Virus record (IMG/VR): IMGVR_UViG_3300023238_000006
Span: 1 to 64,000 of that record
Length of the DNA: 64,000 nucleotides
From: a virus
Lineage: Duplodnaviria > Heunggongvirae > Uroviricota > Caudoviricetes
Strand: one strand, 5' to 3'
A program made the translations under genes and the position numbers. How positions within the stretch are numbered: the stretch's first letter is position 1; each line of letters starts with the position of its first letter. Positions 20,900 through 44,958 of the stretch are shown here, in pieces. The notes under the pieces are model-generated. The model was not told where the DNA came from. It was given only the letters and a program-made list of their open reading frames with translations, and ran no database searches.

Positions 20900-21825
20900 A
20901 TCTACTACCACTGGGCACTTAGGTGCCTACTATAGTAAATTAAAAGGAAACCTATGGAATATCTAGTAACCCTACATGGAGAAACTCTATGTACACTAAC
21001 AGCAAACAGTTTAGAGCAGGCAGAGGCTATTGCCTTTAGAATGTATGGTTTAGAAGTTGACATAAAGGAAAAGTAATGAAGAGTCTATCAAGACTTAAGT
21101 GTGATGCTTGGTTCTATAGGAATTAGGGTAGTATATTTATAGCTATAGTTGTGTTTGGTGGAGCATTGATTGGTTACCTATTTGGTAACTGTAGATGAGC
21201 TTATTACTCGTAGTTCTATGAGTAGTTGCATTATGTATATTATTAAAAGGATAAGTGATGAAGTATTTTGTAATAGTAACAGAGGAAAATGAAGAGCCTT
21301 GTGAAACTAGAAGTGATGCTGGTATGTTCTCGTATCTTGAACCTTACTTTGTAAATACTACTCATTAGAAGAGGCTTTATTGCCCGTGAATACATCTTAT
21401 TGGAGGGACAATTATACCCCTCTTATGATAGTAACAGTATATGATTACAACTAAAGGAAAAGAGATGAAAGTATATTACATAGGTAAAATGATTGGTGAA
21501 TGCGATGAAAATGACTCTAAATGGTCAATAGAAGGTATCTTTGATTCTAAACAATTAGCATTTTCAAAACATGGTAGAAGATGAATTTTGTATTGAGTTA
21601 GAAATGAATGTTAAATTGCCTTCAGAATTAATAAAACCTCCTGAAGGAACATACTGGTGAAAAATTTATAACAAAATTATAAACTATGATGGTGTAGAAG
21701 TAAAGGATTAAATTAGAACTTAAGTATTAGTATAAACTTATATATAAAGGTTTATTCTTAAGCTTTTTTTATTTGTTACCTAGTATATAATACTATATAA
21801 CAAATAAAAAAAACGGAGAACAAAG
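20900..21825. other. AT-rich (about 30% GC) segment poor in ORFs. It contains a palindromic AT stretch (TTATTTGTTAC...ATAACAAATAA) just upstream of 21826.
   Basis: Composition by eye. Only tiny ORFs. The inverted repeat was read directly. Confidence 0.4.
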
Positions 21826-22365
21826 ATGAATAAAGTAGAATTACAAGAAGCACTAAGACTTCATAAGTTATGGTTAAATGATAAACCTGGTGGAATTAGA
21901 GCTGGTTTAAGTAAGGCTAATTTAAGTAATGCTAATTTAAGTTATACTGTTTTAAGAGGTGCTGATTTAAGAGGTACTAATTTAAGTAATGTTGATTTAA
22001 GTTATACTGATTTAAGAGGTGCTGATTTAAGTAAGGCTAATTTAAGAGGTACTAATTTAAGTTCTACTGATTTAAGAGGTGCTAATTTAAGTTATACTGA
22101 TTTAAGAGGTACTAATTTAAGTAATGTTGATTTAAGATGTGCCGTAGGAAACAACAAAGAAATAAAATCGCTTCAAATAGGTACTTATTTAATCTCTTAT
22201 ACAGCAGTTGTTTTAAATATTGGTTGTGAGTCTCACTCTATCAAAAAGTGGGCTTGTTTCAGTGATGAAAGAATAGCTAGTATGGATGAAGAGGCTTTAG
22301 AGTTTTGGAACTTAAACAAACATATAATTTTAGAGTTATGTAACAGAGGAGAAGGAAATGACTAA
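21826..22365 (+). CDS. Pentapeptide-repeat protein (179 aa) with A(D/N)LSx repeats and a C-terminal domain of about 70 aa. Very AT-rich codon usage.
   Basis: ANLSNANLSYTVLRGADLRGTNLSNVDLSYTDLRGADLSKANLRGTNLSSTDLRGANLSYTDLRGTNLSNVDL. Nucleotide-level internal repeats. Confidence 0.7.
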   Translation: MNKVELQEALRLHKLWLNDKPGGIRAGLSKANLSNANLSYTVLRGADLRGTNLSNVDLSYTDLRGADLSKANLRGTNLSSTDLRGANLSYTDLRGTNLSNVDLRCAVGNNKEIKSLQIGTYLISYTAVVLNIGCESHSIKKWACFSDERIASMDEEALEFWNLNKHIILELCNRGEGND

Positions 22366-23020
22366 TAAAGAAAGATATGAAGCTAACCCTGAGAAGTATG
22401 TAGTTTACTGTAGCTACGATGTTACGTGGTTTAAACATGCCAACCAGGACAATGTAACATTCACAAACTCAGGAACAAAGTATAAGCTAATCCTAGCTTC
22501 TCATTCTCACATTGCTGATTCCATTATAGCTGATGGGAGTGTTGAGGTTGAGCAATACTCCACATTATACAATAAAGAAGGTGATAGTAAAATACTAGAT
22601 TTCACTCTAAAAGCTAAAGACTTCTTTAGTGTATATCAATTAGTATATGACTACAGACTAGCAGATAAGCTAGAGATAGATATACCTGATGGTGTTGATG
22701 TACTAGCAGAACCTAAAGAGGAGAAAGAAGTAGCTATAACAAGAGTTGAAGTAATTGGTTTAGAGGGCAGAGAGTTTGTTAGCCATCTTAAAGGTGGTAC
22801 TTATACCACATCCCTACAAGATGATGGTAGAACTCTAAAGATATTTGAAGAACCAATCCAAAAACCGTGGCACGAATATGAGAATAATTTTCCAGCACTT
22901 ATGTATGATGTATTCCATGAACTATTTGAGATAGTAAACAGTAAAATGGGTATTAATAGCGACCACAGACTAGCTACTAAAGAAGAGGTTATGGCACTAT
23001 ATTATGAAGGTAAGAAGTAA
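22358..23020 (+). CDS. Hypothetical protein (220 aa).
   Basis: ORF track. ATGA overlap with the upstream gene. Confidence 0.5.
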   Translation: MTNKERYEANPEKYVVYCSYDVTWFKHANQDNVTFTNSGTKYKLILASHSHIADSIIADGSVEVEQYSTLYNKEGDSKILDFTLKAKDFFSVYQLVYDYRLADKLEIDIPDGVDVLAEPKEEKEVAITRVEVIGLEGREFVSHLKGGTYTTSLQDDGRTLKIFEEPIQKPWHEYENNFPALMYDVFHELFEIVNSKMGINSDHRLATKEEVMALYYEGKK

Positions 23021-23445: not shown

Positions 23446-23992
23446 CCAAGAAGTTATCAGCCCTTGCAGGTAGGTTAACAGAAGTCAGATATGCAAGTAT
23501 CGTGGACTTTAAGCAGTGCAAACGAAGAGACGCTGCAAGGCTAGTTTGGAGTCTTAGGTAGCTATGGTAATATGTTTGTTATCATGGCTATTACCATCCG
23601 CTGTGGAGCGAGGTTACGACCAGTACATATTTATATGTTACCCCCTAGGAGGTTTCAGCTGCTATCGTATTGCTCCCAATTATGTTGCGGTCGTCTAATA
23701 GTAGGGCCCAATCTAGTGTAATTGTGCTTCAAAACCACACTAAGAAACTCTTAGTCGTCTAATTGGCAGGGCACACTCAACAGGCAATGCAGGTGCAAAT
23801 CCTGCCCACAACTAAATACGTTGTATATATAACTTTACTGAGTGACTTCCTAGACAAAACTTTGCATCTAGGTGCAACTTGCAGCATAGGTAAGGTTACA
23901 TATACAACTAAATAATTCTAAAAAGATTAAGAAGCCTACTTACTGAATAGTATTTAGGTCTAGGATGGATAAAGTGGGCCTTACGAGCACAT

Positions 23993-24020
23993 AAAGTGGT
24001 TCGAGTCCACTTAATCTTTT
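23993..24020 (+). terminator. Hairpin AAGTGG-TTCGAGT-CCACTT followed by AATCTTTTT. It is either a rho-independent terminator or the T-arm of a tRNA-like element. A 7-bp acceptor-like complement AAGATTA lies at 23923.
   Basis: Direct reading. The loop TTCGAGT is a canonical tRNA T-loop, but no anticodon arm could be folded by hand. Confidence 0.35.
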
Positions 24021-24064
24021 TAGAGTTATTTGCAGTAATTACATATACAACTAAAAGGATAACT

Positions 24065-29745: not shown

Positions 29746-30345
29746 ATGAAAGTAACAATACACTTAGCAACCCCACAAATACAAGTAGGTGAAATGGCTA
29801 AGATATGTTATGCTACTAAAGCGCTTGAGGCTGGTGGTAAAGATATAACAAATCAACTAGTATTTGGACACGGGCACTTAGCTGCCTTAAGGTTTGCATA
29901 TGTAACATTATCACTAGAAGGTATCTCAGTTGCCTGCCAAAACCAAATAGTAAGAAGTAAGCACTTAGACTTTATGGTACAGTCAAAACGCTATGTAAGT
30001 GCTGATAAGGGAGAGTTCAAATTCATCATGCCTGAAGGGTTAGATGAAGTTACTCAAACTTATATGCAAGGGCATTGGGATACAGCTTTAAGCTGCTACA
30101 CATCGCTATTAAAAAGTGGTGTAAAGAAAGAAGACGCAAGAGCAGTACTGCCAGCTAACACATCCACAAAGATGAACATTACAGGTAATCTACAAGCTTG
30201 GTGGAGTTTCTTTGTCCTCAGAATGACTCCGCATGCTCAAACTGAAGTACGTATGGTAGCTCATGCTATATTTGATAGACTTAAGGATCCATACCCAGAA
30301 GTATTTAATGATAAGTCATTAGCTATATTTACTAAGGCTAAGTAA
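29746..30345 (+). CDS. thyX: Flavin-dependent thymidylate synthase ThyX-like (199 aa).
   Basis: GHGHLAALRFAYVT, RSKHLDFMVQSKRY (a divergent RHR-x7-S-x-RY ThyX motif), and NITGNLQAWWSFFVLRMTPHAQTEVR, which matches the NLRAW.HF..LR...AQ.EIR block of ThyX. Confidence 0.6.
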   Translation: MKVTIHLATPQIQVGEMAKICYATKALEAGGKDITNQLVFGHGHLAALRFAYVTLSLEGISVACQNQIVRSKHLDFMVQSKRYVSADKGEFKFIMPEGLDEVTQTYMQGHWDTALSCYTSLLKSGVKKEDARAVLPANTSTKMNITGNLQAWWSFFVLRMTPHAQTEVRMVAHAIFDRLKDPYPEVFNDKSLAIFTKAK

Positions 30346-31489: not shown

Positions 31490-32323
31490 ATGTTTAAAGA
31501 CAAAACAATTGCCATATACGACATTGAAAGTCCTTGGATAACTGATGCAGGAATCTCTGCCTTAACCCAAATATATTGTATAGGGGTGGTAACACTACTA
31601 AATGGCAATATCATAGATAAGAAGATGTATACCGAACACTGGACTACCTACTCAGATGGTTCATTAGTAGAATGTATGACTGCATTAAACTCTGCAGACA
31701 TTCGTGTAGCATTCAACAACATTGGATTCGATGACGTTGTAATGTCTAACGTTATAGGTGTAGGGATGCCTATAATATCTAGCACTCTGGACTTCAACTC
31801 CTTAGACTTAATCATATGCGCTAAGCTATGCTACAGCAAAGATGAACTAATGGCTATAGATATAGAGCTAAACCTAGATAAAGCCTTATGGGGTTCTTAC
31901 TCCTTACGAGCCTTTGGAGCTCGTCTAGGCAACGCTAAGATGCACTTCGATGAATTCGATGGTGGACTTACAGAAGACCTCTGTACGTACTGTATACAGG
32001 ATTGTGTGGTAACTGCAGACCTGTTTATACACCTGACTCAAAAAGAAAACTTTCCGATAGCTGCTGTACTAACAATAGAACATAAAGCTAGCACAATCAT
32101 CCAAGAGCAGACATTCCACGGATTTTATATTGATATAACTAAGACCAGAGCCCTTAACACTAAACTTCTCAAAGAGAAGCTAGAGATAGCTACTGAACTA
32201 AGCAAGACCTTTATGCCCAAATGGCTACCAGACGGTAAGGTACTTACCTATAAAAAGAAAAGTATAACTAGGAAGTTTCTTCCTAACAACAGTTACATTC
32301 CCCTACTGGGCACAAAGGTTTAA
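31490..32323 (+). CDS. Family A (T7-like) DNA polymerase, N-terminal fragment: 3'-5' proofreading exonuclease domain plus the start of the thumb (277 aa).
   Basis: Exo I IAIYDIES. Exo II FNNIGFDD (T7 FHNGHKYD). Exo III YCIQDCVVTADLF (T7 YNVQDVVVTKALL). Collinear with T7 gp5 residues about 1-300. Confidence 0.8.
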   Translation: MFKDKTIAIYDIESPWITDAGISALTQIYCIGVVTLLNGNIIDKKMYTEHWTTYSDGSLVECMTALNSADIRVAFNNIGFDDVVMSNVIGVGMPIISSTLDFNSLDLIICAKLCYSKDELMAIDIELNLDKALWGSYSLRAFGARLGNAKMHFDEFDGGLTEDLCTYCIQDCVVTADLFIHLTQKENFPIAAVLTIEHKASTIIQEQTFHGFYIDITKTRALNTKLLKEKLEIATELSKTFMPKWLPDGKVLTYKKKSITRKFLPNNSYIPLLGTKV

Positions 32324-32324
32324 A

Positions 32325-32489
32325 ATGAAATACTCTCAAATGATAGCAATACACACCACAGCACTACTACTGTTAGGGGTAGCACTGGCTATATACCCAA
32401 TACTATTACCTATAGTCCTACTAGCTATGTGTGTAGTCCTAGTTGTACAAGCTGGAGTTGAGCTATACCACTGGCTGACTAATGTCTAG
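32325..32489 (+). CDS. Small membrane protein (54 aa).
   Basis: Manual translation. TAAAATG follows the DNAP-exo stop. Confidence 0.35.
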   Translation: MKYSQMIAIHTTALLLLGVALAIYPILLPIVLLAMCVVLVVQAGVELYHWLTNV

Positions 32490-32589
32490 CATAGGTGTAG
32501 CTGAGGCTATACTAACTATGGGGATATTAATAATATTAATAACGTTCATAGGCACATACTGTGCTGTTGAACACTCTAAGAAAAACTAA
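32482..32589 (+). CDS. Small membrane peptide (35 aa).
   Basis: Manual translation. Confidence 0.25.
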   Translation: MSSIGVAEAILTMGILIILITFIGTYCAVEHSKKN

Positions 32590-32864
32590 ACTACCTTCCT
32601 CCTGGCATTGCTAATACCATATAAGCCCAATGGCGTCTATTGGTCTTCCGCTGACGTACACTCGCTAAGACTAACTCCATTCATCTTCATTGGAGTATAA
32701 CATTAAGATGACCGAGAAGGGCACTATCATACTAACATCCGCAGCTCGGTATATAAAAATAAGAGCAAGGGATGTATGGCGGGACTAATACACCTTGCTT
32801 AATACAAACGTAATACAGAAAGATACTGTATAACAGACCCAGAGGCCGTTGAGGTAACGCTGCG

Positions 32865-32954
32865 GTAGGTGTAAAGTAGTCCGGTAACACTTGGTGTATC
32901 ATTTACCTGCAGAGGTATGCATCTAGATCGCTGGTTCAAATACAGCCACCTACC
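32865..32954 (+). tRNA. tRNA-like element with a 7-bp acceptor GTAGGTG/CACCTAC, a D-arm AAGT..ACTT and a T-arm GCTGG-TTCAAAT-ACAGC. The 37-nt middle region (anticodon/variable) could not be folded by hand.
   Basis: Manual base-pair check. Class II or intron-containing tRNA, or a tRNA-like decoy. Confidence 0.25.
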
Positions 32955-34348
32955 ATGAGAGAAGACTCAAACAACATTCCCGAACTTACAGTTCTAATCT
33001 ACCTTCATCGCGGATAGAAATTAGATAACCCTACAGGCTCCCGGCGGGCTGTGTAGGTTGAAACAAGCCATACTACTTAGGCTAAACTAGTAGCAGAGCA
33101 TAACTGCAATATCCGTCTGGTCCCCGTAAGGGACTCTATAAACTCCTAGTGAGCATACACACTAAGACAGGAATACAAGAGACTGCCTGACTACGCAGTG
33201 TATTGCGTAATACACCCAGTCAGTTGTGTGTTCTCTAGGGTTTTATACCCAAAGTTTCTATCAGCTTGATGATGGCGTATATCCTACGACACAAGGATCA
33301 ACACCGTGCCTCTTATCAAGGCTAGTACGCTGGTTGTATACGTATGAAGAAGTAGCTTGATACCTACATTTGAACCAAAACCGGTAACTGCTCCCGTTAA
33401 GGGCTCTGAGACGAGAAGGCTCTCGCCTTCTCTCCACAGCCTAGCAGCTAAGTTCCTAAGAGCATATAGATAACTGTTCCATAGATGTAAGCTGATGCCC
33501 AACGCTATGACTAAGTAACCCTAGAGCCCAACGAGATTAATTATCTCACCACACATTTGGATAGCACGTCGAGAGTCACTATGCCGGTCCATTGTAGATA
33601 CTCAATGCTATATGTTCTTAGGAGCTTATCCCTCCTGAAAAAAGCTAGTAACTTAATTACTCTTCTTAAACGTCAATGCACTATTATGCCCCAGATGTGA
33701 ACAGGGAATGCCTGGCAACGTATATAGGGAATGTTGTGAAGTGTCTTGCGTATTAGCACCATAGGTAGCACTTGGAGTATAGGTACCTAGCGACCTGCAC
33801 TCGAAAATTATATCAATGCGCTAAGCCCTTGTTGATACCTTGGGAGATGTCTACACTCGATGTGAGGGGACGCTAAATACAAGATCATCAGACCACTAGT
33901 TACCCATCACTAGTATAAATAAGATGGGCAATATGTAAACGTATAAAGTAGGGTTGCCTACAAATGTGGCTGTCCTCGAGGCTTGTAGACCACATCCTAT
34001 TAAGGTGCAGTTCAACTCTGATTCGTTTACACCAAAAATAAGTACCAGTCATCTAACTAGTCAAGAAGCTCCATTAAAGGAGCTAATGTGAGTGCAACTC
34101 TCACCTGGTACACCAGCTCCGTATAGAGTATAAACGATTCAGTCAAGAGTAAAGACTATAACTTATCCCCTCGGGATTGAAGCTTCAAAAAGTACGTCAC
34201 TGTGGAACAGGACTTAAAAGAAACAGTAGGTTCCTCACGTACCTTAAACGTGGGTGCATATGCTGCAGCCTGGTTGGCACGAGAGGTTCGATTCCTTTAA
34301 CAGCACTAGATATATCGAAAGATCCTCATATCTTAAATGGGGACGTAA

Positions 34349-34424
34349 GTACCATTAGCTTAATCGGTAAAAAGCGTCGACTATTAAAACATAAGATACT
34401 GGTTTGAATCCAGTATGGTACACA
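34349..34424 (+). tRNA. tRNA-like element with acceptor GTACCAT/ATGGTAC, U8, a D-arm GCTT-AATCGGTAAA-AAGC containing GG, and a T-arm ACTGG-TTTGAAT-CCAGT. The anticodon stem does not pair.
   Basis: Manual folding. Probable degenerate or pseudo-tRNA. Confidence 0.2.
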
Positions 34425-35190
34425 AAACAATGGGGCGAGCATTACAGAGGCAGGATGAATTTGCAACTTCATCAGTGAGTTTGACTCTCACCGCTCCACC
34501 ATGATACCACCTATGAGCATAAGTTATAAGCCAGGAATAAAACCGCCTGCAGTACCGAACAGTAAGGTACAGTGTTACCGGTCCACTTATGTTCTTAGGT
34601 GTTATCACCAGTCCCCAGCTAAGACTTAAAATAAATGCACTCCAAGCCATTATGAGTATAAACCATTGGCAGTACCCGCCGATAGCAGGGGCAGTTTAAG
34701 TGCTAACCAAGTCTCCGGAAGCTCATCTAGGTCAAGACTTTAAACTGACCCTAAACGAAGCAGGTTTTACCGTTGTACCTTAAACAATGGCTACGACTAT
34801 CCCTGTGGGTACATACAGGAAGACAGGATAAGTATACACTGCCTGAAGCGTGTAGTTAGTTGCGCACATCTAACCCAGTGCTGTATGTATCCTCAGGGGT
34901 CGTCTAGCTAAAGAATGACCGCTAATCATAAACTATAGCAGCGTGGCAAACAGAGCTGAAAGACTCAATACCAACCAGAGGTACCGGACGCTATAAAAAT
35001 TCGGGGTAGACGGAGTTAACCATAGGTGTACAACTACTGGTGCAAAAGCAATAAACTTATGAAGGTTATATACTCTCCTTTGGAGATCAAGTATGTAGCC
35101 TTTAGTAAGTTTATACAATACGTAACATAGTACAGATTAAAGCCATAAAAGGTACTTAATCTGTATTATAATAAACATTAAAGGAACCAG

Positions 35191-35529
35191 ATGGAAACAA
35201 CTCTACTAACAATAGCCCTAATACTAATCACCCACTTCGTGGCTGATTTCGTACTCCAATCAGACTACGTAGCTAAGAACAAATCTAAATCTAACTGGGT
35301 ACTACTACAACACGGCACTATCTATATGATACCCTTCATCATCATAATAAGCCCACTCTACGGCCTAGTTAACGCTATCCTGCACATTGCTGTGGATTAC
35401 TTCACATCACGTGCTACAGGTAAGCTATGGGCTGCTGGTAAGACTCATGACTTCTTTTTAGTTATAGGATTTGATCAGTTATTACATTCACTAACGCTAA
35501 TAGGTACTTACTACTTATTAGTATTATAA
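35191..35529 (+). CDS. Small polytopic membrane protein (112 aa), first gene of the NAD-salvage operon.
   Basis: ORF track. Three hydrophobic segments. RBS aaaggaaccagATG. Confidence 0.5.
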   Translation: METTLLTIALILITHFVADFVLQSDYVAKNKSKSNWVLLQHGTIYMIPFIIIISPLYGLVNAILHIAVDYFTSRATGKLWAAGKTHDFFLVIGFDQLLHSLTLIGTYYLLVL

Positions 35530-35537
35530 GGACTTCT

Positions 35538-36062
35538 ATGCTTAAATACGGAATAATACTTGGGAGATGTCAGCCCATGCATTTAGGCCACCAACACATT
35601 ATCAACAAAATAATATCGGATGGACTAACACCTGTAGTAGTACTAGGCTCTTCACAAGAAGCTGGTACTACTAAGAACCCATATCATCCACTACAACGTA
35701 TACACATGCTTCGCCTAGTATACCCAGATATCAAATGCTTCGCATTAGATGATGCTGACTGCTGGGACGAATGGTACAACAAGCTTATAAACTCAATAGA
35801 GTTAGTAATAACTGATGACTTATCAGAAGTAACTATCTACCTCCACGACAAACTTGAAGACTTACAAGACTTCACCTTTAGAGGTATAGACTATTTCAAT
35901 GAGTCATACAGCAAAGTCTACGAAGTAGACGGTATGCATACAACTAAGCTAGCTATATCTGATATTCAGATTAGAGCTAAATCAATACGTGAAGACTTAG
36001 AAGGTAATAAACACTTCTTAGATACTAACGTGTATAACTATATAAAGGGACTTAATGACTGA
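35538..36062 (+). CDS. Nicotinamide/nicotinate mononucleotide adenylyltransferase (NadM/archaeal-type NMNAT, 174 aa).
   Basis: GIILGRCQPMHLGHQHII is the G-R-F-Q-P-F-H-x-G-H nucleotidyltransferase signature of NadM-type NMNAT. Confidence 0.7.
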   Translation: MLKYGIILGRCQPMHLGHQHIINKIISDGLTPVVVLGSSQEAGTTKNPYHPLQRIHMLRLVYPDIKCFALDDADCWDEWYNKLINSIELVITDDLSEVTIYLHDKLEDLQDFTFRGIDYFNESYSKVYEVDGMHTTKLAISDIQIRAKSIREDLEGNKHFLDTNVYNYIKGLND

Positions 36063-36603
36063 TACAACAATAGAATGGCAATCCCCTGAGACAACACCAG
36101 CAGGTGATCCGTTCCTAACAGTAAAGAAAGCTAGAGGTTACTACTACTACGCAGAGCGTGGGGGAGTAGACTCTATAGCCTTCGTACTGCTGGATAAAAC
36201 AGCTAACAAGATTGGTCTTATACTAGAGAGTAAACCTCCTATGGATGAAATGGCTTCAATTGAAGTTGACTACATCACTGCATTTGGGGGGTCTATAGAC
36301 TCACCAGACTCTAAGACTGATATAGTTATAACTGAGGTATTAGAGGAAGCTGGTTACGTAGTAACAGCTGATAATGTAACTGAAGTTGGATCAACTGTGG
36401 TATCGACCCAAATGAGTCAAACACTTTACGCCTACACAGTAGACGTTACAGGTATACCTAAGACTGCAGAGACTGAGTACGAGTCTCAAGGTAAAGGTGA
36501 TAGAACACAGTGGATGACATTCACTGAAGCATTAGCAAACTCTGACTGGAAGTCTATATTTATTATGACTATGTTAGGGCACAAGCTAGATGGAGCTAAA
36601 TAA
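36055..36603 (+). CDS. Nudix hydrolase (ADP-ribose pyrophosphatase-like, 182 aa).
   Basis: Nudix-box-like GGSIDSPDSKTDIVITEVLEEAGY. 8-nt overlap with the NMNAT gene. In other phages NMNAT and Nudix are fused as NatV. Confidence 0.6.
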   Translation: MTDTTIEWQSPETTPAGDPFLTVKKARGYYYYAERGGVDSIAFVLLDKTANKIGLILESKPPMDEMASIEVDYITAFGGSIDSPDSKTDIVITEVLEEAGYVVTADNVTEVGSTVVSTQMSQTLYAYTVDVTGIPKTAETEYESQGKGDRTQWMTFTEALANSDWKSIFIMTMLGHKLDGAK

Positions 36604-37997
36604 TGCAATCAATACTAAACCTAGCTGATTCCTACAAATTCTCACATTCAAGCCAGTACCCAAAGAATATGGTAAGTCAATATGACTACATGGAATCACG
36701 TGGGGGCACTTACCCTGCAACAGTATTCGTAGGACTTCAGTACTACTTATTCAAGTACCTAACAGTACCTGTGACTGAGTTAGAAGTAAAACTAACAGCG
36801 GCTAAAGCTGCTCGTCACGGAGTACCTTTCGATCTAAATGGTTGGATGCATATTGTAAACAACTGTGATGGCTTAATTCCCGTAGAAATTAAAGCAGTAC
36901 CAGAAGGCAGCCTAATACCTACCAAGATGGTACTAGTAACTATAGAATCAACAGACACAGCTGTTCCATGGATAGCAGGATTCTTAGAGACTATCTTAAT
37001 GAAGATCTGGTACCCAACTACAATAGCTACTAAATCTTACTACACTCGTAAGATGCTAGAGAAGTACGGAGATCCTGAATGGGCTAAGTTCGCTTACCAC
37101 AACTTCGGAGACCGTGGCGCTACCTCAGTAGAATCTGCAGCTATAGGAGGCTTTGCCCACTACACCCAATTCATGGGAACTGATAACTTCAACTCCCTAG
37201 ACATTGCAGAGAACTACTACGCTACAACAGCCATGCCAGCATACTCAGTATACGCTACCGAGCACTCTAGCACTACCTCACACGGTCGTGAAGGAGAAGA
37301 AGAGTTTGTCTATACTCAGCTATTAGAAAACCCTGGTAAGGCCATCATGAGCTTCGTAGCTGATTCATACGACGTGTATGAGTTTACTAAGTTCTGTACA
37401 GCCCCTAACTCTCGTATTAGAGAACTAATTGAGTCTAGACCTAGCCAAAAGTTAGTCCTCCGCCCTGACTCTGGTAACCCTATTGAAGTGATGACACAGA
37501 TGTTAGCTATAGTTAAAGCCAATAATTGGGGCTATACTGAGACTCCTACAGGATTACTATTCAATCAACTAGGTATCTTATGGGGTGATGGAATCACTCC
37601 TGAAGTAATAGAAGAAATCTTAGCTATGGTACCACGTGTGGGCTATGCAGCTGGGAACTTCATATTTGGAAGTGGTGGTGATCTCATGCAGAACATCACT
37701 AGAGACACTCAGAGGTTTGCTATTAAATGTAGTAGTATCACTGTAGCACATGATGAGTTTATAGGTAATACCTCGTACGAAGAGGTAGATGTCTACAAAG
37801 ACCCTATTACTGACCCTGGTAAAGCCTCTAAACGTGGTAAGGTAACTACTTACATTAGAGAAGATGGTACTTACTTCGTAGACCTGGTAACAAATAAAAC
37901 ACCTGATGCTAAGAATGCTTTAACAACTGTATTCTTAAATGGTACGGTAACTAAAGAGTATACACTAGAAGAGATACGTAACAACTCAAAGGACTAA
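36603..37997 (+). CDS. nadV: Nicotinamide phosphoribosyltransferase (NAMPT/NadV, 464 aa).
   Basis: N-terminal LNLADSYKFSHSSQYP (the DSYK motif of NAMPT/NAPRT). Length is typical. Co-operonic with NMNAT. Confidence 0.75.
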   Translation: MQSILNLADSYKFSHSSQYPKNMVSQYDYMESRGGTYPATVFVGLQYYLFKYLTVPVTELEVKLTAAKAARHGVPFDLNGWMHIVNNCDGLIPVEIKAVPEGSLIPTKMVLVTIESTDTAVPWIAGFLETILMKIWYPTTIATKSYYTRKMLEKYGDPEWAKFAYHNFGDRGATSVESAAIGGFAHYTQFMGTDNFNSLDIAENYYATTAMPAYSVYATEHSSTTSHGREGEEEFVYTQLLENPGKAIMSFVADSYDVYEFTKFCTAPNSRIRELIESRPSQKLVLRPDSGNPIEVMTQMLAIVKANNWGYTETPTGLLFNQLGILWGDGITPEVIEEILAMVPRVGYAAGNFIFGSGGDLMQNITRDTQRFAIKCSSITVAHDEFIGNTSYEEVDVYKDPITDPGKASKRGKVTTYIREDGTYFVDLVTNKTPDAKNALTTVFLNGTVTKEYTLEEIRNNSKD

Positions 37998-42907: not shown

Positions 42908-43600
42908 ATGGATAACTTCGAATACTTAGTTAGAGTTGCAGAAATGGACACACTAACTACCCTTAAAGCTAAGGAGCAGTTCATTAGAGAGCAGGTAGCT
43001 GCTATCTATGAAATAGATGGGATGGATAGCTGGAGCCATTATGTTAATGACTCAAATGTTGCCGCAGTTATACCTAGATATAAACTACTTACTAAAGCGT
43101 TAAATCTCTATGATGGGGCTAATGACTTACCAGATAAACTTCTTAAAGTTAAACGTAGGTTATGTGCTAGTTTACTAACTAGGTTTGTAGAGCAAAAGCA
43201 TAACTACCCAGACTTCGTAAATTTCTTTGAGTTTGATGCAGAGTTAAACTTTCGTGGAATGTATGGGGGGGACGCTATATCTGTAATACTTATGATAGGC
43301 ACAGAGGTGCCTATACAAAAGGTAGAGTTGACGCTACATGCACCATACAGACTGCAGTATGTGTTTAACGACATACTAACAGACAGTGATAATTATAGCC
43401 TTAGAAATATACTAGCAGCAGAAGACTTAAAAGCTGCACTACATAACCGTGAGGATCTTACAATGCTTAATCAACTAATAGATAAGGCTTACAGTGACCT
43501 TAATAAAAGATCCTTACCAGCTGACCTATCTAAAGTACCTATAAACCTAGAACGCCTAAACACTATCTCAGCCACTATGATGGCAAAGTTATGCCCTTAG
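42908..43600 (+). CDS. Hypothetical protein (230 aa). It overlaps the DNAP polymerase ORF by 10 nt in another frame.
   Basis: ORF track. Not similar to DNAP thumb sequences by eye. Confidence 0.5.
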   Translation: MDNFEYLVRVAEMDTLTTLKAKEQFIREQVAAIYEIDGMDSWSHYVNDSNVAAVIPRYKLLTKALNLYDGANDLPDKLLKVKRRLCASLLTRFVEQKHNYPDFVNFFEFDAELNFRGMYGGDAISVILMIGTEVPIQKVELTLHAPYRLQYVFNDILTDSDNYSLRNILAAEDLKAALHNREDLTMLNQLIDKAYSDLNKRSLPADLSKVPINLERLNTISATMMAKLCP

Positions 43601-44958
43601 CCCCTTACAAAATCCCAAGTGGGAGGTACTTGAAAAATGGTAGTTGGAAACCTCCAGGTAAAAAAACGTTCAAATGGTTCTCAACTCCTCATAGGACGAT
43701 AAACGTAACTAGGGAAGGGGAGTACCAACCTATTAAGTATGAGCCGTTTAATCCTGGGTCACGTTCACATATAAAGAAGTGGATGGAAGAGGACTATGGC
43801 TACACGTTTCCTTATTATACAGAGAAAGGATCTCCTAAAGTTGACCCCGAGTCGTTAGACAATATGAACCACCCAGCAGGAAAGATGCTTAAAAGGTTTT
43901 TAAAGGTTGGAAAGGACCAGTCGCAAATAGGCAATGGGGCAGGATCTCTTATAAGTCACTACAATGAAAACACAAAAGGTATACACTGTAGAGTTGACAC
44001 TAATGGCACTATTACAGGCAGATTCTCGGTAAATTCTCCAAATATGGCACAGATACCATCTCAAGAGGAATTCAGGGAGCTGTTCTCTGCACCAGAGGGC
44101 TGGACCTTTGTAGGTGTGGATTTTTCTCAGCAGGAGCTAGTAAATCTAGCGCATTTCCTGTACCCTTATGATGGCGGAGCATATGCTAAAACTGTTGCTG
44201 ATGGTAATAAAGAAGATGAAACAGATCCACATAATGTACATAAAAGGCTGGCTGGGCTAGATACTAGAGGGCAGGCTAAAGTGTTTGGATTCCAGTACCT
44301 GTATGGTGCAGGTGAAGTTGTTCTAGGAGCAGCTGTAAGGTCAGAGCTGTTAGCCGATTACACAGATAAAGAATATGCAACAGCTAAGAAGAAAATAGAC
44401 AGACGTATAGTAATTATAGACGATATGCCTCTATTCCCTATAAAGAAGGATAAGTATATACAAGTCACAGAACTTCTAATACATCAAGCTATATACGGCA
44501 ACCGCATAGTTACCAAATTCGAAAAGAACTTTCCTGGTTTATCAGAGCTAATCAAAGCACTCCAGAAAGAAGCTAAGGACTACGGCACTATCACTATACC
44601 TGGCGGGAGGGTTATGCCTTGCAGATCCTCCAGGAACGCGCTGAACACTGCTATGCAATCCCTAGGAGGCACCGCAATGAAGTACTATTTGGTAGCTATA
44701 CATAGAGAATTAGCTAAAGAAGGTATTATACATGGAAAGCACTTCATACAGCAAGCAACAATATATGATGAGGTTGATATGATAGTAAAAACTGAGTACG
44801 CAGAAGCAGTTGGCAAAACTCTAGAACGCTGCTTCTCAATTATATCAGAGGAACTATCCCTAAACACGCACTACAAAGGCGAAGCCCTTCTTGGGGGAAT
44901 AAGTATAGATACTGACACAAAGTTGCCTATAGCAAATTCTTGGTGGGGTTGTCATTAA
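43591..44958 (+). CDS. Family A (T7-like) DNA polymerase, C-terminal fragment: thumb, palm and fingers (455 aa).
   Basis: EPFNPGSRSHIKK matches T7 VVFNPSSRDHIQKK. TGRFSVNSPNMAQIPS matches TGRxSSxxPNLQNIP. Motif A VGVDFSQQEL. Motif B GQAKVFGFQYLYGAG. Motif C IYDEVDMIV. The C-terminus ...NSWWGCH matches T7 ...NWAICH. Confidence 0.85.
   Translation: MPLAPYKIPSGRYLKNGSWKPPGKKTFKWFSTPHRTINVTREGEYQPIKYEPFNPGSRSHIKKWMEEDYGYTFPYYTEKGSPKVDPESLDNMNHPAGKMLKRFLKVGKDQSQIGNGAGSLISHYNENTKGIHCRVDTNGTITGRFSVNSPNMAQIPSQEEFRELFSAPEGWTFVGVDFSQQELVNLAHFLYPYDGGAYAKTVADGNKEDETDPHNVHKRLAGLDTRGQAKVFGFQYLYGAGEVVLGAAVRSELLADYTDKEYATAKKKIDRRIVIIDDMPLFPIKKDKYIQVTELLIHQAIYGNRIVTKFEKNFPGLSELIKALQKEAKDYGTITIPGGRVMPCRSSRNALNTAMQSLGGTAMKYYLVAIHRELAKEGIIHGKHFIQQATIYDEVDMIVKTEYAEAVGKTLERCFSIISEELSLNTHYKGEALLGGISIDTDTKLPIANSWWGCH

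What the first reader, a model, noticed from the sequence alone, without database searches (positions are those of the whole stretch)
32590..35190. 2.6-kb ORF-free island predicted to fold into RNA, with tRNA-like modules, inside the split polymerase locus
The rest of the rightward arm is packed with coupled ORFs, but this 2.6 kb has none longer than 88 aa in the six-frame track. It is dense in nested helices. One is CTGAC-[TACGCA-GTGTAT-TGCGTA]-ATACACCC-AGTCAG at about 33186-33223. Another is GAGAAGGC-TCTC-GCCTTCTC at about 33410-33430. A third is a three-way arrangement GGAGCT...[GTGAG-TGCAAC-TCTCAC][CTGG-TACA-CCAG]...AGCTCC at about 34078-34120. There are also short CCC-loop-GGG hairpins: a GTAA (GNRA-type) tetraloop at about 33124-33133 and a 5-nt GTTAA loop at about 33399-33409. 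Three canonical tRNA T-loops occur: GCTGG-TTCAAAT-ACAGC at 32930, GGTTCGATTCC at 34285, and ACTGG-TTTGAAT-CCAGT at 34396. Two of these have matching 7-bp acceptor stems and D-arms but unfoldable anticodon regions. This fits a large ornate ncRNA of the kind often found next to tRNAs in phages (GOLLD/ROOL-like), or an array of intron-containing or decoy tRNAs. Either would be notable immediately upstream of an NAD/anti-defence operon.
Basis: seen in the sequence. Interest (0 to 1): 0.8.

Follow-up and report, generated by a model that had tools for sequence, protein, structure and literature searches.

The report
Degenerate tRNA and small-RNA array
This 2.6-kb gene-free stretch of an uncultured phage is not one giant RNA but the phage's tRNA slot, where the tRNAs have been reduced to tRNA-like stubs that alternate with four copies of an undescribed, roughly 100-180-nt stem-enclosed RNA that also sits next to tRNAs in a few other phages.

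Summary
The preferred interpretation, a GOLLD/ROOL-like giant RNA, is not supported. Rfam gives one hit, a tRNA at 34349-34422. Fold stability is only modestly above coding sequence, and conservation with relatives is a mosaic of 30-60-nt blocks.

Related phages carry ordinary tRNA arrays or a tmRNA in the same slot, next to the NMNAT/NAMPT genes. The island holds four clear tRNA-like elements and one weak one. The four keep a perfect 7-bp acceptor stem and an adjoining T arm (one mismatch in T1). None has a normal anticodon arm. One is the homologue of a canonical tRNA in a relative.

Between them are four copies of a family not in Rfam, with 12 copies in 6 phage contig lineages. Its ~19-bp closing stem has an invariant G·U and compensatory changes at 18 of 22 positions. 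Three copies share a nested double-pseudoknot core. Copies typically lie 5-12 nt after a tRNA or tRNA-like 3' end.

Best reading: a tRNA-punctuated array of small non-decoding RNAs. Function is unknown; a processing role, a decoy role and plain decay remain open.

The parts
32642..32812 (+). Conserved non-coding block shared with relative L043. It contains the hairpin ACTCCA...TGGAGT at 32675-32697, then UAUAACAUUAAGA, and AUACACCUUGCUUAAUACAAACGUA at 32787-32812. The window carries a 71-nt insertion with its own hairpin between the two halves.
   Evidence: The two halves are 91% identical over 35 nt and 33 nt to L043 5563-5597 and 5601-5633. Flanking genes are only about 62-65% identical at the DNA level.
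32865..32953 (+). T1: a tRNA-like element with class-II shape. It has a 7-bp acceptor (GTAGGTG/CACCTAC), a D arm, a long variable hairpin and a T arm with a G·A closing mismatch. The anticodon arm has a mismatch and A33 (loop CAUUUAC).
   Evidence: Found by the acceptor plus T-arm scan. ARAGORN reports it only at the lowered threshold, as 'tRNA-Lys(ttt)', and not at default. There is no Rfam tRNA hit.
32990..33033 (+). Conserved block X, shared with L058 and lying upstream of the module in both phages.
   Evidence: 82% identical over 44 nt to L058 4641-4684.
33119..33136 (+). Hairpin GGUCCC-CGUAA-GGGACU. It is probably a degenerate T arm that precedes M1 by about 7 nt.
   Evidence: Fold. It aligns to the T arm GCAGG-TTCGATG-CCTGT of L058 in the same position before that phage's module.
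33143..33243 (+). M1: stem-enclosed module, type A. It has closing stem P1, P2 (CAGG/CCTG), PK1 (GACUG/CAGUC), P3 (ACGCA/UGCGU) and PK2 (GUGUAU/AUACAC).
   Evidence: The 120-nt window starting at 33130 has z = -2.6.
33396..33434 (+). Two short hairpins just upstream of M2: CCC-GUUAA-GGG and GAGAAGGC-UCUC-GCCUUCUC.
   Evidence: Sequence and fold. The window starting at 33370 has z = -2.5. No homologue was found.
33449..33628 (+). M2: stem-enclosed module with a 21-bp closing stem (UAAGUUCCUAAGAGCAUAUAG / CUAUAUGUUCUUAGGAGCUUA) and a 138-nt interior.
   Evidence: Inverted repeat I2, 21 nt and 90% complementary. Also.
34042..34115 (+). T2: a tRNA-like element. It has a 7-bp acceptor (GTACCAG/CTGGTAC), a T arm GUGAG-UGCAACU-CUCAC and an encoded A-CCA end. 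The anticodon-like arm has 6 bp and a 6-nt loop AUUAAA. There is no D arm.
   Evidence: scan; MFE z = -3.6. Its T arm is a paralogue of T5's (repeat D4, 83%). The Rfam Tymo_tRNA-like match is only 18.9 bits against a 40-bit cut-off.
34188..34226 (+). Conserved block Y, shared with L058.
   Evidence: 85% identical over 39 nt to L058 6164-6202.
34234..34260 (+). Hairpin with the 7-nt loop ACCUUAA. A second copy lies at 34769-34795, and related hairpins occur in L043 and L061.
   Evidence: GTACCTTAAAC occurs twice in the island. Folds. L043 5857-5888 and L061 3396-3427 are 94% identical to each other and carry a related loop.
34262..34310 (+). T3: a weak mini tRNA-like element. It has a 5-bp acceptor (GCUG../..CAGC), the small hairpin GCC-UGGUU-GGC and the T arm AGAGG-UUCGAUU-CCUUU. 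There is no anticodon arm.
   Evidence: Fold. The energy is not better than shuffles (z = +0.2), so this is the least certain element.
34349..34422 (+). T4: a tRNA-like element with perfect acceptor, D and T arms but an unpaired anticodon stem (UCGAC / ACAUA) around the loop UAUUAAA.
   Evidence: Rfam tRNA, 46.7 bits against a 29-bit cut-off. ARAGORN negative. It is the homologue of the canonical tRNA(AUU) at L063 32-103. Acceptor and T stems differ at 1 of 24 positions against 24% overall (P = 0.011).
34431..34502 (+). T5: a tRNA-Ala- or tmRNA-TLD-like minihelix RNA. In the register GGGGCGA.../...CGCUCC-A-CCA it has G3·U70, A73 and an encoded CCA. The T arm is GUGAG-UUUGACU-CUCAC. The anticodon-like arm has 6 bp and an 8-nt loop UUUGCAAC. 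The D region is vestigial.
   Evidence: Its 3' part resembles L044 4019-4046, with a compensatory change in the T stem. L044 3965-4048 scores 26 bits on the tmRNA model. No tRNA or tmRNA hit is reported here for the window itself.
34507..34603 (+). M3: stem-enclosed module, type B, starting 5 nt after the CCA of T5. The P2 loop is AAUAAAACCG.
34687..34752 (+). Long-range stem AGGGGCAGUUUAA / UUAAACUGACCCU enclosing 40 nt.
   Evidence: Inverted repeat I12, 13 nt and 92% complementary. Fold. No homologue was found.
34795..34908 (+). M4: stem-enclosed module, type A, with a variant closing stem (GGGUACAUACAG / CUGUAUGUAUCC). The variant keeps the G·U while its neighbouring pairs covary.
   Evidence: Inverted repeat I1. 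77% identical to the L058 module. Also.
34896..34935 (+). Conserved hairpin and tail, GGGGUCGUC...GAAUGACCGCUAAUCAUAAA, directly after M4. L043 has the same element after its module.
   Evidence: 82% identical over 56 aligned columns to L043 6065-6118; the last 20 nt are identical.
35048..35171 (+). Two strong terminal hairpins before the first gene of the NAD cluster. The first is a hairpin of about 27 bp at 35051-35114 with arms AUAAACUUAU / GUAAGUUUAU. The second is a 14-bp hairpin at 35127-35169.
   Evidence: The window starting at 35050 has z = -9.1. The arms of the first hairpin recur at the 3' end of the islands of L043, L058, L068 and L082. The motif is not repeated elsewhere in the window.

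Best explanation
The island is this phage lineage's tRNA/small-RNA slot. It lies between the polymerase-exonuclease-like gene and the NAD-salvage genes (DUF3307, NMNAT-like, NAMPT). In this phage it no longer holds decodable tRNAs.

Shown:
- It is an array of at least a dozen separate small structured elements on the + strand.
- (a) There are four clear tRNA-derived elements (T1, T2, T4, T5) and one weak one (T3). The four keep the acceptor-stem/T-arm minihelix, two of them with an encoded ACCA end. Each lacks a normal anticodon arm, and T2 and T5 also lack a normal D arm.
- (b) There are four copies (M1-M4) of a stem-enclosed RNA family not present in Rfam. Its ~19-bp closing helix has a conserved sequence (CCUAAGAGCAUA / UAUGUUCUUAGG) and an invariant G·U. 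Its interior is variable. In type A copies the interior folds as a nested double pseudoknot.
- (c) There are several smaller conserved hairpins and blocks.

Inferred mechanism:
- The array is transcribed rightward with the surrounding operon as one precursor.
- The tRNA-like minihelices act as punctuation for the host tRNA-processing enzymes: RNase P at their 5' ends, and RNase Z or RNase E plus exonucleases at their 3' ends.
- This processing releases the modules that sit 5-12 nt downstream as discrete, stable RNAs of about 100-180 nt.
- The long G·U-containing closing stem is the recognition or stability element, for a double-strand-specific nuclease such as RNase III or for an unknown protein.
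- The variable interior carries whatever specific activity each module has.

The tRNA-like elements themselves are most likely non-decoding.
For: Synteny:
- Relatives with 57-76% identical NMNAT carry canonical tRNA arrays or a tmRNA in the equivalent ORF-poor slot.
- L002 has a tmRNA and three tRNAs. L068 has five tRNAs there by ARAGORN and a sixth by Rfam. L058 has tRNA-Ser, L061 tRNA(UUA) and L063 tRNA(AUU).

tRNA derivation:
- T4 aligns over 71 nt with the canonical tRNA of L063.
- Acceptor and T stems differ at 1 of 24 positions, against 24% overall (P = 0.011).
- The 3' strand of the anticodon stem and the variable loop differ at 6 of 9 positions.
- The window's D stem GCUU/AAGC still pairs where L063 has GCUC/GAGC.
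- T2, T4 and the L063 tRNA share GUACCA acceptors and an AUUAA anticodon-loop core.

Non-random tRNA-likeness: 3 perfect acceptor plus T-arm hits lie in 460 nt, against 4.8 per 64 kb in shuffles.

Module family:
- There are 12 copies in 6 phage contig lineages: window x4, L043 x2, L058, L068 x3, L080, L091.
- In the 11-copy arm alignment, 83% of cells pair against 34-57% when the register is slid. 18 of 22 pairs show changes on both sides. The G·U is 11 of 11.
- In a sequence-only pattern search, 1 of 39 matches had 20 of 22 pairs (L091). That match lies in a phage tRNA region, and all the others had 16 or fewer.
- An inner hairpin, CAGG/CCUG, covaries to CGGA/UCCG and CAGA/UCUG.
- Type A copies share the same helix order, with covarying PK1 and PK2.

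Adjacency: modules start 5-12 nt after a tRNA or tRNA-like 3' end in L068 (three times), at T5 to M3, and in L091. In L058 and at M1 they follow a T-arm hairpin.

Strand: the G·U pairs and the tRNA-like elements make sense only on the + strand. Fold z-scores are lower on + than on -.

No coding signal.

Precedent: in phage T4, tRNA-Arg is followed within a few nt by the small stable RNAs rnaD (119 nt) and rnaC (139 nt). rnaC ends in a tRNA-like T arm.
Against: - No expression or processing data exist. Transcription, cleavage sites and stability are all inferred.
- The different tRNA-like elements are damaged in different places: T4 lacks the anticodon stem, T2 lacks the D arm, and T5 has an 8-nt loop. 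Plain pseudogene decay would also produce this.
- One population SNP breaks an acceptor pair of T2 (34109 T>C).
- Most module copies were found with a search that required arm pairing. The pairing percentage is therefore inflated by ascertainment. Only the L091 copy and the both-sides changes are free of that bias.
- Module interiors are poorly conserved outside types A and B.
- The family is rare. A strict pattern found none in IMG/VR, and a looser one found a single new copy.
- No RNase III or other candidate partner was identified.
Confidence: 0.6

Rival explanations
1. Decay plus selfish DNA. The island is a dying tRNA array whose tRNA genes are pseudogenes under relaxed selection after a host or codon-usage change. 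The repeated 'modules' are DNA-level inverted-repeat elements (MITE-like, or recombination or endonuclease sites) that spread in the tRNA regions of phages. Nothing in the island has an RNA-level function.
For: - No tRNA-like element is decodable.
- Each is damaged in a different part.
- Islands of relatives are mosaics with rapid turnover and length changes from 0.8 to 2.9 kb.
- Modules are bounded by inverted repeats and have variable interiors.
- An SNP breaks a T2 acceptor pair.
Against: - Acceptor and T stems of T4 are conserved far above the local rate (1 of 24 positions against 24%, P = 0.011).
- The window's D stem GCUU/AAGC still pairs where L063 has GCUC/GAGC.
- All four good tRNA-like elements keep 7 of 7 acceptor pairs.
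- The two arms of the module differ at one fixed position (G against A, giving G·U on the + strand only) in 11 of 11 copies from 5 phages. Neighbouring pairs covary, and variant M4 shows this clearly.
- Copies within one genome are old (60-70% identical), not recent transpositions.
- Conserved blocks are 82-91% identical where flanking genes are about 62-65% identical.
- Phage genomes rarely keep 2.6 kb of junk.
Confidence: 0.2
2. Anti-defence tRNA mimics. The anticodon-less, acceptor/T-arm minihelix RNAs are decoys or sponges. They could soak up host tRNA-targeting immunity, or supply uncleavable substrates to enzymes that read only the acceptor end. T5 carries the AlaRS identity set G3·U70/A73/CCA. 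Candidate immune targets are anticodon nucleases of the PrrC, RloC, PARIS-AriB, Schlafen or retron-PtuAB type, and toxins that modify the CCA end. This would complement the NAD-reconstitution genes next door.
For: - The acceptor/T-arm half is selectively retained while the anticodon arm is lost or remodelled.
- ACCA ends are encoded in T2 and T5.
- Relatives show unusual anticodon loops: 9-nt and 11-nt loops in L068, and A34 or G33 anticodon loops in L063 and L061.
- Relatives encode RtcB, RlaP, a CCA-adding-type enzyme, an RNA ligase and Apyc1 beside the same NAD genes.
- Published work shows that phage tRNAs evolve anticodon-loop changes to evade tRNA-cleaving defences (PMC10264068).
Against: - This is purely contextual. 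No defence system, target or binding partner is identified.
- The window itself encodes no RtcB, PNK or ligase in the ORFs scanned.
- An RNA without an anticodon stem-loop may not be recognised by anticodon nucleases at all.
- The elements are heterogeneous.
Confidence: 0.12
3. One large ornate non-coding RNA (GOLLD/ROOL-like) spans most of the 2.6 kb and folds as a single unit.
For: - The region is ORF-free, lies where relatives have tRNAs and contains many local helices.
- Some long-range complementarities exist, for example 32874-32891 with 34571-34588 at 18 nt and 89%.
Against: - There is no hit to GOLLD, ROOL or any other large RNA family, even at E<=10.
- The mean fold z-score is only -0.96, and many 120-nt windows are at or above 0.
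- Homologous blocks are short, separated by unalignable sequence, and re-ordered or absent in relatives whose islands range from 0.8 to 2.9 kb.
- The same modules occur singly in other phages.
Confidence: 0.04
4. Functional but unconventional decoding tRNAs, or a split or permuted tmRNA, that standard finders miss. The causes could be introns, expanded anticodon loops, or post-transcriptional editing or repair.
For: - ARAGORN at the lowered threshold calls T1 'tRNA-Lys(ttt)'.
- T5 has an Ala-like anticodon-loop sequence, UUUGCAAC.
- Relatives have tRNAs with 9-11-nt anticodon loops that still score as tRNA.
Against: - T4 has 1 of 5 anticodon-stem pairs. T2 has a 6-nt loop and no D arm. T5 has an 8-nt loop and a 2-bp D stem. 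T1 has A33 and a mismatch.
- There is no group I intron hit and no ARAGORN intron call in the island.
- No tmRNA tag or pseudoknot domain is detected by ARAGORN or Rfam.
Confidence: 0.04

Closest known systems
Phage tRNA gene clusters with accompanying small stable RNAs. The type example is phage T4: eight tRNAs plus rnaC (species 1 RNA, 139 nt) and rnaD (species 2 RNA, 119 nt).
   Same: - It is an ORF-poor cluster on the coding strand, inside an early or middle gene region.
- Non-tRNA small RNAs of 100-180 nt sit directly (within a few nt) downstream of a tRNA.
- At least one T4 species (rnaC) ends in a tRNA-like T arm.
- Function is unknown after decades.
   Different: - No sequence similarity was found, and no INPHARED phage matches the island by blastn.
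- Here no canonical tRNA remains.
- The non-tRNA RNAs form a repeated family with a ~19-bp G·U-containing closing stem, present four times.
- Expression here is unproven.
YrlA / bacterial Y RNA-like RNAs (Rfam RF02553)
   Same: - The architecture is a long terminal stem, formed by the 5' and 3' ends, that encloses a variable effector domain.
- There is an association with tRNA mimicry.
- In relatives there is an association with RtcB-type RNA repair genes.
   Different: - There is no YrlA hit in the window. The weak 30.9-bit hit in L068 simply spans two tRNAs.
- In YrlA the tRNA-like part lies inside the stem. Here the tRNA-like elements lie outside and upstream of the stem modules.
- No Ro/TROVE gene was seen among the window ORFs scanned.
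tRNA gene fragments and pseudo-tRNAs in prokaryotic genomes (discussed in PMC9897764)
   Same: Partial tRNA-like sequences score on tRNA models but lack a complete cloverleaf. T4 scores 46.7 bits with an unpaired anticodon stem.
   Different: - These are full-length elements with intact 7-bp acceptor stems closing the molecule, not truncated 3' or 5' fragments such as att-site remnants.
- They are clustered, and stem conservation is non-neutral.
GOLLD and ROOL large RNAs of phages and prophages
   Same: They occur in phage genomes, are often adjacent to tRNA genes, and are non-coding.
   Different: - No covariance-model match was found.
- The island is not one conserved fold but a mosaic of small units.
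tmRNA tRNA-like domain, and alanine minihelices
   Same: - T5 has G3·U70, A73, an encoded CCA and a T arm similar to a tmRNA-like remnant in L044.
- A full tmRNA occupies the same slot in L002.
   Different: - T5 is only 72 nt.
- It has no tag reading frame, no pseudoknots, and no tmRNA hit in the window.

Membership tests
GOLLD / ROOL / HEARO large ncRNAs | A match to the family covariance model (conserved multi-stem core). | tested here: not met
   cmscan of Rfam 15 found no such hit, either at gathering thresholds on the whole window or at E<=10 on 32300-35400.
GOLLD / ROOL / HEARO large ncRNAs | Collinear conservation of one large (>500 nt) fold among relatives. | tested here: not met
   Only 30-60-nt blocks are shared. 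They are re-ordered, and island length varies from 0.8 to 2.9 kb.
Canonical (decoding) tRNA | A 7-bp acceptor stem closing the molecule, with the T arm stacked directly on its 3' strand. | tested here: met
   T1, T2, T4 and T5 have 7 of 7 acceptor pairs. T2, T4 and T5 have 5 of 5 T-stem pairs, and T1 has 4 of 5.
Canonical (decoding) tRNA | A 5-bp anticodon stem with a 7-nt loop carrying U33. | tested here: not met
   T4 has 1 of 5 stem pairs. T2 has a 6-nt loop. T5 has an 8-nt loop. T1 has a mismatch and A33. T3 has no such arm.
Canonical (decoding) tRNA | Detection by standard tRNA finders. | tested here: not met
   ARAGORN at default finds 0 genes in 64 kb. Only T4 passes the Rfam tRNA cut-off (46.7 bits). 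T1 appears only at the lowered ARAGORN threshold.
Intron-containing tRNA (group I intron in the anticodon loop, or ARAGORN C-loop intron) | An intron model hit, or an intron-tolerant tRNA prediction, in the island. | tested here: not met
   There is no Intron_gpI or gpII hit in the island. ARAGORN -i gives no call in 32590-35190.
tmRNA (one-piece or permuted) | A tRNA-like domain together with a tag reading frame and pseudoknots. | tested here: not met
   ARAGORN and Rfam find no tmRNA in the window. Only the acceptor identity features of T5 are present. Relative L002 does have a full tmRNA in the slot.
T4-type small stable RNAs of phage tRNA clusters (rnaC / rnaD kind) | Location inside a phage tRNA cluster, directly 3' of a tRNA, with a size of about 100-180 nt and no coding capacity. 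| tested here: met
   Modules of 90-180 nt lie 5-12 nt after tRNA or tRNA-like 3' ends in L068, the window and L091. The T4 layout is shown.
T4-type small stable RNAs of phage tRNA clusters (rnaC / rnaD kind) | Accumulation as a discrete stable RNA processed from the tRNA precursor. | not testable with these tools
   This needs RNA from infected cells.
MITE-like inverted-repeat mobile element | Terminal inverted repeats, target-site duplications, and near-identical recent copies. | tested here: inconclusive
   Inverted arms are present. However, copies are only 60-70% alike. The two arms differ at one fixed position in all 11 copies, giving G·U. No obvious flanking duplication was seen by eye. 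The ends of the stem are too fuzzy for a strict test.
YrlA / Y RNA | A covariance-model match and a Ro (TROVE) partner gene. | tested here: not met
   There is no YrlA or Y_RNA hit in the island. No TROVE domain was found in the 30 window ORFs scanned with Pfam. The rest of the genome was not seen.
Known self-cleaving ribozyme classes (hammerhead, twister, twister-sister, pistol, hatchet, HDV-like) | A covariance-model match. | tested here: not met
   No such hit was found at E<=10. The helix order of type A modules (P2, PK1, P2', P3, PK2, P3', PK2', PK1') does not reproduce the HDV order as I know it.

The most novel reading that the evidence does not exclude
The stem-enclosed modules are a new, phage-specific class of functional RNA. 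They share a conserved ~19-bp helix with an obligatory G·U, and the best-conserved subtype has a compact nested double pseudoknot. That level of architecture is otherwise seen in ribozymes, riboswitches or dedicated protein-binding RNAs.

On this reading the modules are cut out of a tRNA-punctuated precursor. The neighbouring anticodon-less tRNA minihelices are not relics but active mimics. They could be processing handles, or decoys for tRNA-targeting immunity. Together with the adjacent NAD-reconstitution genes they would form an RNA-based counter-defence island.
Probability: 0.15. Interest if true: 0.8.

Novelty: new variant of a known kind. Interest (0 to 1): 0.5.

Why it matters
Phage tRNA clusters are usually read as codon-supply or anti-anticodon-nuclease devices. 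Their non-tRNA passengers, such as T4 species 1 and 2 RNAs, have stayed unexplained for fifty years.

This island offers a case where the decoding function is gone but two things remain under apparent constraint:
- the acceptor/T-arm halves of the tRNA-like elements;
- a repeated, covarying, G·U-marked stem module.

If these RNAs are expressed, they point to a function of tRNA-cluster RNA that is independent of translation, such as processing punctuation, protein sponging or defence decoys. They also give a defined and experimentally tractable RNA motif.

If they are not expressed, the island is a clear example of how a phage tRNA array decays. It is also a warning that tRNA covariance models will call such relics tRNA genes.

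Tried and rejected
1. Rfam at gathering and at E<=10 thresholds returned only the tRNA hit. The weak Tymo_tRNA-like, CRISPR-DR54 and Srn266 matches are far below their cut-offs and were treated as chance.

2. blastn and megablast against 50,697 cultured-phage records found no match. The polymerase is under 30% identical to any cultured phage, so no annotated relative exists.

3. The polymerase-exonuclease-like protein found no relative in IMG/VR. DUF3307, NAMPT and NMNAT worked as anchors instead.

4. Exact 20-mers from the conserved blocks occur only in the L043 contig in IMG/VR.

5. ARAGORN at 80% and 70% thresholds produces 50 and 391 calls over the window. This was rejected as noise.

6. 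An arms-only covariance model (R1) could not span the 60-150-nt interiors and recovered none of the known modules. Full-length MAFFT alignments of the modules were too ragged to model. I therefore relied on a motif-plus-pairing script and on a fixed-register arm alignment.

7. Two strict module patterns found nothing in IMG/VR. The looser pattern found one true new copy among 7 IMG/VR hits, and none among 32 hits in 185,579 bacterial and archaeal genomes.

8. I considered a group II intron domain V reading, because GAGC...GUUC with A-U, G·U and C-G pairs matches the base of domain V. I rejected it because the stem encloses 60-150 nt, has no 2-nt bulge and no GNRA hairpin, and no intron or reverse transcriptase is present.

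9. Other readings considered and rejected:
- HDV-like: rejected on helix order.
- Retron msr/msd: rejected because there is no reverse transcriptase.
- Type III antitoxin repeats: rejected because the copies are not tandem or short.
- NAD+ riboswitches: rejected because there is no Rfam hit and the position is wrong.
- Sigma-70 promoters or terminators: rejected because there are fewer promoter-like sites than in shuffles.

10. The motif GTAAGTTTAT is not a repeated phage promoter.

11. Population SNPs are too few to test constraint: 3 in 1.2 kb of island against 7 in 0.9 kb of adjacent coding sequence.

Full report
**What the window is.** The window is part of a tailed phage with no close cultured relative. 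Neither the island nor 20 kb around it matches 50,697 phage records, and the family-A polymerase is under 30% identical to any of them. On the + strand the local genes are:
- ThyX at 29746-30345;
- a polymerase/exonuclease-like protein at 31490-32323;
- the island;
- DUF3307 at 35191-35529;
- a cytidylyltransferase-like (NMNAT-type) protein at 35538-36062;
- NAMPT at 36603-37997;
- a metallophosphoesterase, and further on a DNA_pol_A fragment at 43591-44958.

The same sequence, base for base, occurs in at least four independent assemblies from saline-lake metagenomes, so it is not an assembly artefact.

**Check of the observation.** The island has no ORF over 88 aa. It has no PHROG match and no protein-level conservation with any relative. 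All the quoted helices and T-loop motifs are present. Three details need correcting:
- The 33124 hairpin has a 5-nt loop, not a GNRA tetraloop.
- The T stem at 32930 has a G·A closing mismatch.
- The element at 34285 has only a weak 5-bp acceptor, and its fold is no better than shuffles.

The claim of dense structure is only modestly true. Mean z-scores of 120-nt windows are -0.96 on the + strand, against -0.38 for downstream coding sequence (p = 0.035) and -0.39 for the island's minus strand. Strong values occur only at discrete places: 32710-32770, 33130, 33370, 34030, 34390 and 34990-35050.

**Known RNA families.** ARAGORN finds no tRNA or tmRNA in the whole window. Rfam 15 finds one family above threshold, a tRNA at 34349-34422 with 46.7 bits. 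Even at E<=10 it finds nothing resembling GOLLD, ROOL, HEARO, introns, tmRNA, Y RNA or ribozymes. The large-ornate-RNA reading therefore has no support.

**What relatives have at this position.** I used DUF3307, NAMPT and NMNAT as anchors to fetch relatives from IMG/VR, JGI metagenomes, ENA and Logan. Several carry an ORF-poor stretch of 0.8-2.9 kb beside or close upstream of the NAD genes. In many of them it contains ordinary RNA genes:
- L002 has a full tmRNA and three tRNAs.
- L068 has five tRNAs there by ARAGORN and a sixth by Rfam.
- L058 has tRNA-Ser, L061 a tRNA with anticodon UUA, and L063 a tRNA with anticodon AUU.
- L044 has an 84-nt remnant that scores 26 bits on the tmRNA model.

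The island is thus the lineage's tRNA/tmRNA slot. DNA comparison of the islands shows a mosaic. Blocks of 25-60 nt at 77-96% identity are shared between different pairs of phages, often in a different order, and are separated by unalignable sequence. Flanking genes are about 60-65% identical. That pattern fits an array of small independent RNA genes with turnover, not one large RNA.

**The tRNA-like elements.** A scan for a 7-bp acceptor helix whose 3' strand directly follows a 5-bp stem with a 7-nt loop gives three perfect hits within 34042-34498, and a fourth with one T-stem mismatch at 32865-32953. Shuffled sequence gives 4.8 hits per 64 kb.
- T1 (32865-32953) has acceptor, D arm, a long variable hairpin and a T arm. 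Its anticodon arm has a mismatch and A33. ARAGORN reports it only at the lowered threshold.
- T2 (34042-34115) has an acceptor, a T arm with the loop UGCAACU and an encoded A-CCA end. It has a 6-bp arm with a 6-nt loop and no D arm.
- T3 (34262-34310) is a weak mini-version.
- T4 (34349-34422) has perfect acceptor, D and T arms, but only 1 of 5 anticodon-stem pairs.
- T5 (34431-34502), read as GGGGCGA.../...CGCUCC-A-CCA, has G3·U70, A73 and an encoded CCA. It has a T arm paralogous to T2's, a 6-bp arm with the 8-nt loop UUUGCAAC and a vestigial D region.

T4 is informative because it aligns with the canonical tRNA(AUU) of L063. The acceptor and T stems differ at 1 of 24 positions, against 24% overall (binomial P = 0.011). 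The 3' strand of the anticodon stem and the variable loop differ at 6 of 9 positions. The window's D stem GCUU/AAGC still pairs where L063 has GCUC/GAGC. T2, T4 and the L063 tRNA share GUACCA acceptors and an AUUAA loop core, so T2 and T4 are paralogous derivatives of that tRNA.

I conclude that these are tRNA-derived RNAs that cannot decode, and that the acceptor/T-arm half is still constrained. The elements are damaged in different places, and one population SNP breaks a T2 acceptor pair. Simple decay therefore cannot be excluded.

**The repeated stem-enclosed module.** Repeat analysis showed long inverted repeats and a three-copy direct repeat. Both resolve into four copies of one module: M1 at 33143-33243, M2 at 33449-33628, M3 at 34507-34603 and M4 at 34795-34908. 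Each is closed by a helix of about 19 bp with the consensus CCUAAGAGCAUA... / ...UAUGUUCUUAGG.

The same module occurs twice in L043, once in L058, three times in L068 and once in L080. A sequence-only pattern search also found it in an unrelated AT-rich phage contig, L091. In that search, 38 other pattern matches (6 viral, 32 bacterial or archaeal) had 9-16 of 22 arm positions paired. The L091 match had 20 of 22 and lies in a tRNA region. I found no copy in 185,579 prokaryotic genomes.

In a fixed-register alignment of the arms of 11 copies:
- 83% of cells pair, against 34-57% when the register is slid.
- 18 of 22 positions show changes on both sides.
- One position is G·U in 11 of 11 copies, while its neighbours covary. 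M4 has GGGUAC/GUAUCC in place of GAGCAU/AUGUUC.

Most copies were found with a filter that required arm pairing, so the pairing percentage is inflated. The both-sides changes, the invariant wobble and the L091 result do not depend on that filter. The fixed G·U works only on the + strand. It argues for selection at the RNA level rather than for a DNA inverted repeat.

Inside the stem, seven of the copies share a first hairpin, CAGG...CCUG, that covaries to CGGA/UCCG and CAGA/UCUG. Three copies (M1, M4 and L058, 'type A') share the same order of helices: P2, PK1, P2', P3, PK2, P3', PK2', PK1'. Both pseudoknot helices covary:
- PK1: GACUG/CAGUC, CACUG/CAGUG, CACUA/UAGUG.
- PK2: GUGUAU/AUACAC, GUUAG/CUAAC, GUUUA/UAAAC.

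Other copies have unrelated interiors of 60-150 nt. No Rfam family overlaps any module.

**Arrangement.** Modules sit directly after tRNAs or tRNA-like elements.
- In L068, three modules begin 5-8 nt after the ends of canonical tRNAs.
- In the window, M3 begins 5 nt after the CCA of T5.
- In L091, a 115-nt element with a 7-bp acceptor and an adjoining hairpin ends about 10 nt before the module.
- In L058 and before M1, a T-arm hairpin (degenerate in the window) precedes the module by about 7-10 nt.

Each module is followed by a small hairpin that overlaps the last GG of the closing stem.

The island ends with two strong hairpins (z = -9.1). The arms of the first recur at the 3' end of the islands of L043, L058, L068 and L082.

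**Interpretation.** The best-supported description is a co-oriented array of small structured RNAs: non-decoding tRNA derivatives alternating with a new stem-enclosed RNA family and a few smaller conserved hairpins. The mechanism I think most likely is tRNA punctuation, and it is inferred. In this model the array is transcribed with the operon. RNase P and the tRNA 3'-end machinery cut at the retained acceptor/T-arm minihelices. This releases the downstream modules, whose long G·U-marked stem gives stability or is the binding or cleavage site for a partner such as RNase III.

The closest precedent is phage T4. There tRNA-Arg is followed within a few nucleotides by the small stable RNAs rnaD and rnaC, and rnaC ends in a tRNA-like T arm. 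Their function remains unknown.

The rivals, in order of weight, are:
- neutral decay of a tRNA array plus selfish inverted-repeat DNA (about 0.2);
- tRNA mimics that serve as anti-defence decoys (about 0.12). This fits the neighbouring NAD-reconstitution genes, the RNA-repair and Apyc1 genes of relatives, and published evidence that phage tRNAs adapt to anticodon-targeting immunity (PMC10264068, PMC13056530);
- a single large RNA (about 0.04);
- unconventional but decoding tRNAs (about 0.04).

**Novelty and score.** The kind of locus, a phage tRNA cluster with passenger RNAs, is known. What appears new is a cluster with no canonical tRNA left but constrained acceptor/T halves, and the module family itself. 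That family has 12 copies in 6 phage contig lineages, is absent from Rfam 15, and was not found in cultured phages or in prokaryotic genomes at the sensitivity used. I rate it a new variant of a known kind, with interest 0.5. It is clearly more than an artefact, but it has no expression data and only a small family so far. It is also less remarkable than the GOLLD/ROOL-like reading that motivated the original score of 0.8.

Noticed in passing
window 23450-24060: A second ORF-poor stretch holds another tRNA-like element at 23923-24018. It has a perfect 7-bp acceptor (AAGATTA/TAATCTT), the T arm AGTGG-TTCGAGT-CCACT and a 65-nt non-cloverleaf interior (fold z = -3.1). There is also a marginal ARAGORN 'tRNA-Thr(agt) with a 42-nt intron' call at 23684-23813, seen only at the lowered threshold.
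   Followed up: partly
L068 358-518; L063 32-103; L061 2287-2359; L082 1469-1541: tRNAs of related phages have unusual anticodon loops. L068 has 9-nt and 11-nt loops. L063 has A34 (anticodon AUU), L068 and L082 have AAU, and L068 has AAA. L061 has a UUA (ochre-reading) anticodon preceded by G33. This may reflect evasion of anticodon nucleases or non-standard decoding.
   Followed up: partly
L044 3965-4048 and L002 5948-6277: L002 has a full phage tmRNA (tag ANNVNYRSAQFVRVAA) in the slot. L044 has an 84-nt remnant that matches only the two ends of the tmRNA model (26 bits, below the 47-bit cut-off). This suggests tmRNA reduction to a bare tRNA-like domain in this lineage.
   Followed up: partly
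L066 4562-6762 and 12028-13308; L068 1807-2529, 3199-4326 and 8469-9770: Relatives place RNA-repair and anti-defence genes around the same NMNAT/NAMPT pair. These are RlaP, a CCA-adding/poly(A)-polymerase-type enzyme, RtcB, an RNA ligase and anti-Pycsar Apyc1. None of these was seen in the window ORFs scanned.
   Followed up: no
L043 14888-15176 and 15612-15841: The relative L043 has group I intron hits downstream of its NAD cluster. One is at the gathering score (50.2 bits) and one is below it (31.7 bits).
   Followed up: no
window 21000-23000: GC content drops sharply to 0.30-0.34 with positive GC skew, against about 0.40 elsewhere. The region covers a pentapeptide-repeat protein (21826-22365) and an unannotated 220-aa ORF. 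It is possibly a recently acquired cassette.
   Followed up: no
window 35538-37997: The NMNAT-like cytidylyltransferase and NAMPT form a two-enzyme NAD+ salvage pair of the type reported to counter NAD-depleting defence. This link rests on my own knowledge and was not tested here. DUF3307 lies upstream of them in the window but downstream of NAMPT in L043 and L061.
   Followed up: partly
window 34234-34260 and 34769-34795; L043 5857-5888; L061 3396-3427: A recurring hairpin has a 7-nt loop, ACCUUAA in the window and a related loop in L043 and L061. The stems differ between copies. The loop is partly complementary to the local ribosome-binding consensus UAAAGGAA, which is only an observation.
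   Followed up: partly
L058 3986-4022: There is a sub-threshold match to the abiF RNA motif (27.9 bits against 37, E = 0.71) at the very start of the L058 island. It is probably chance.
   Followed up: no
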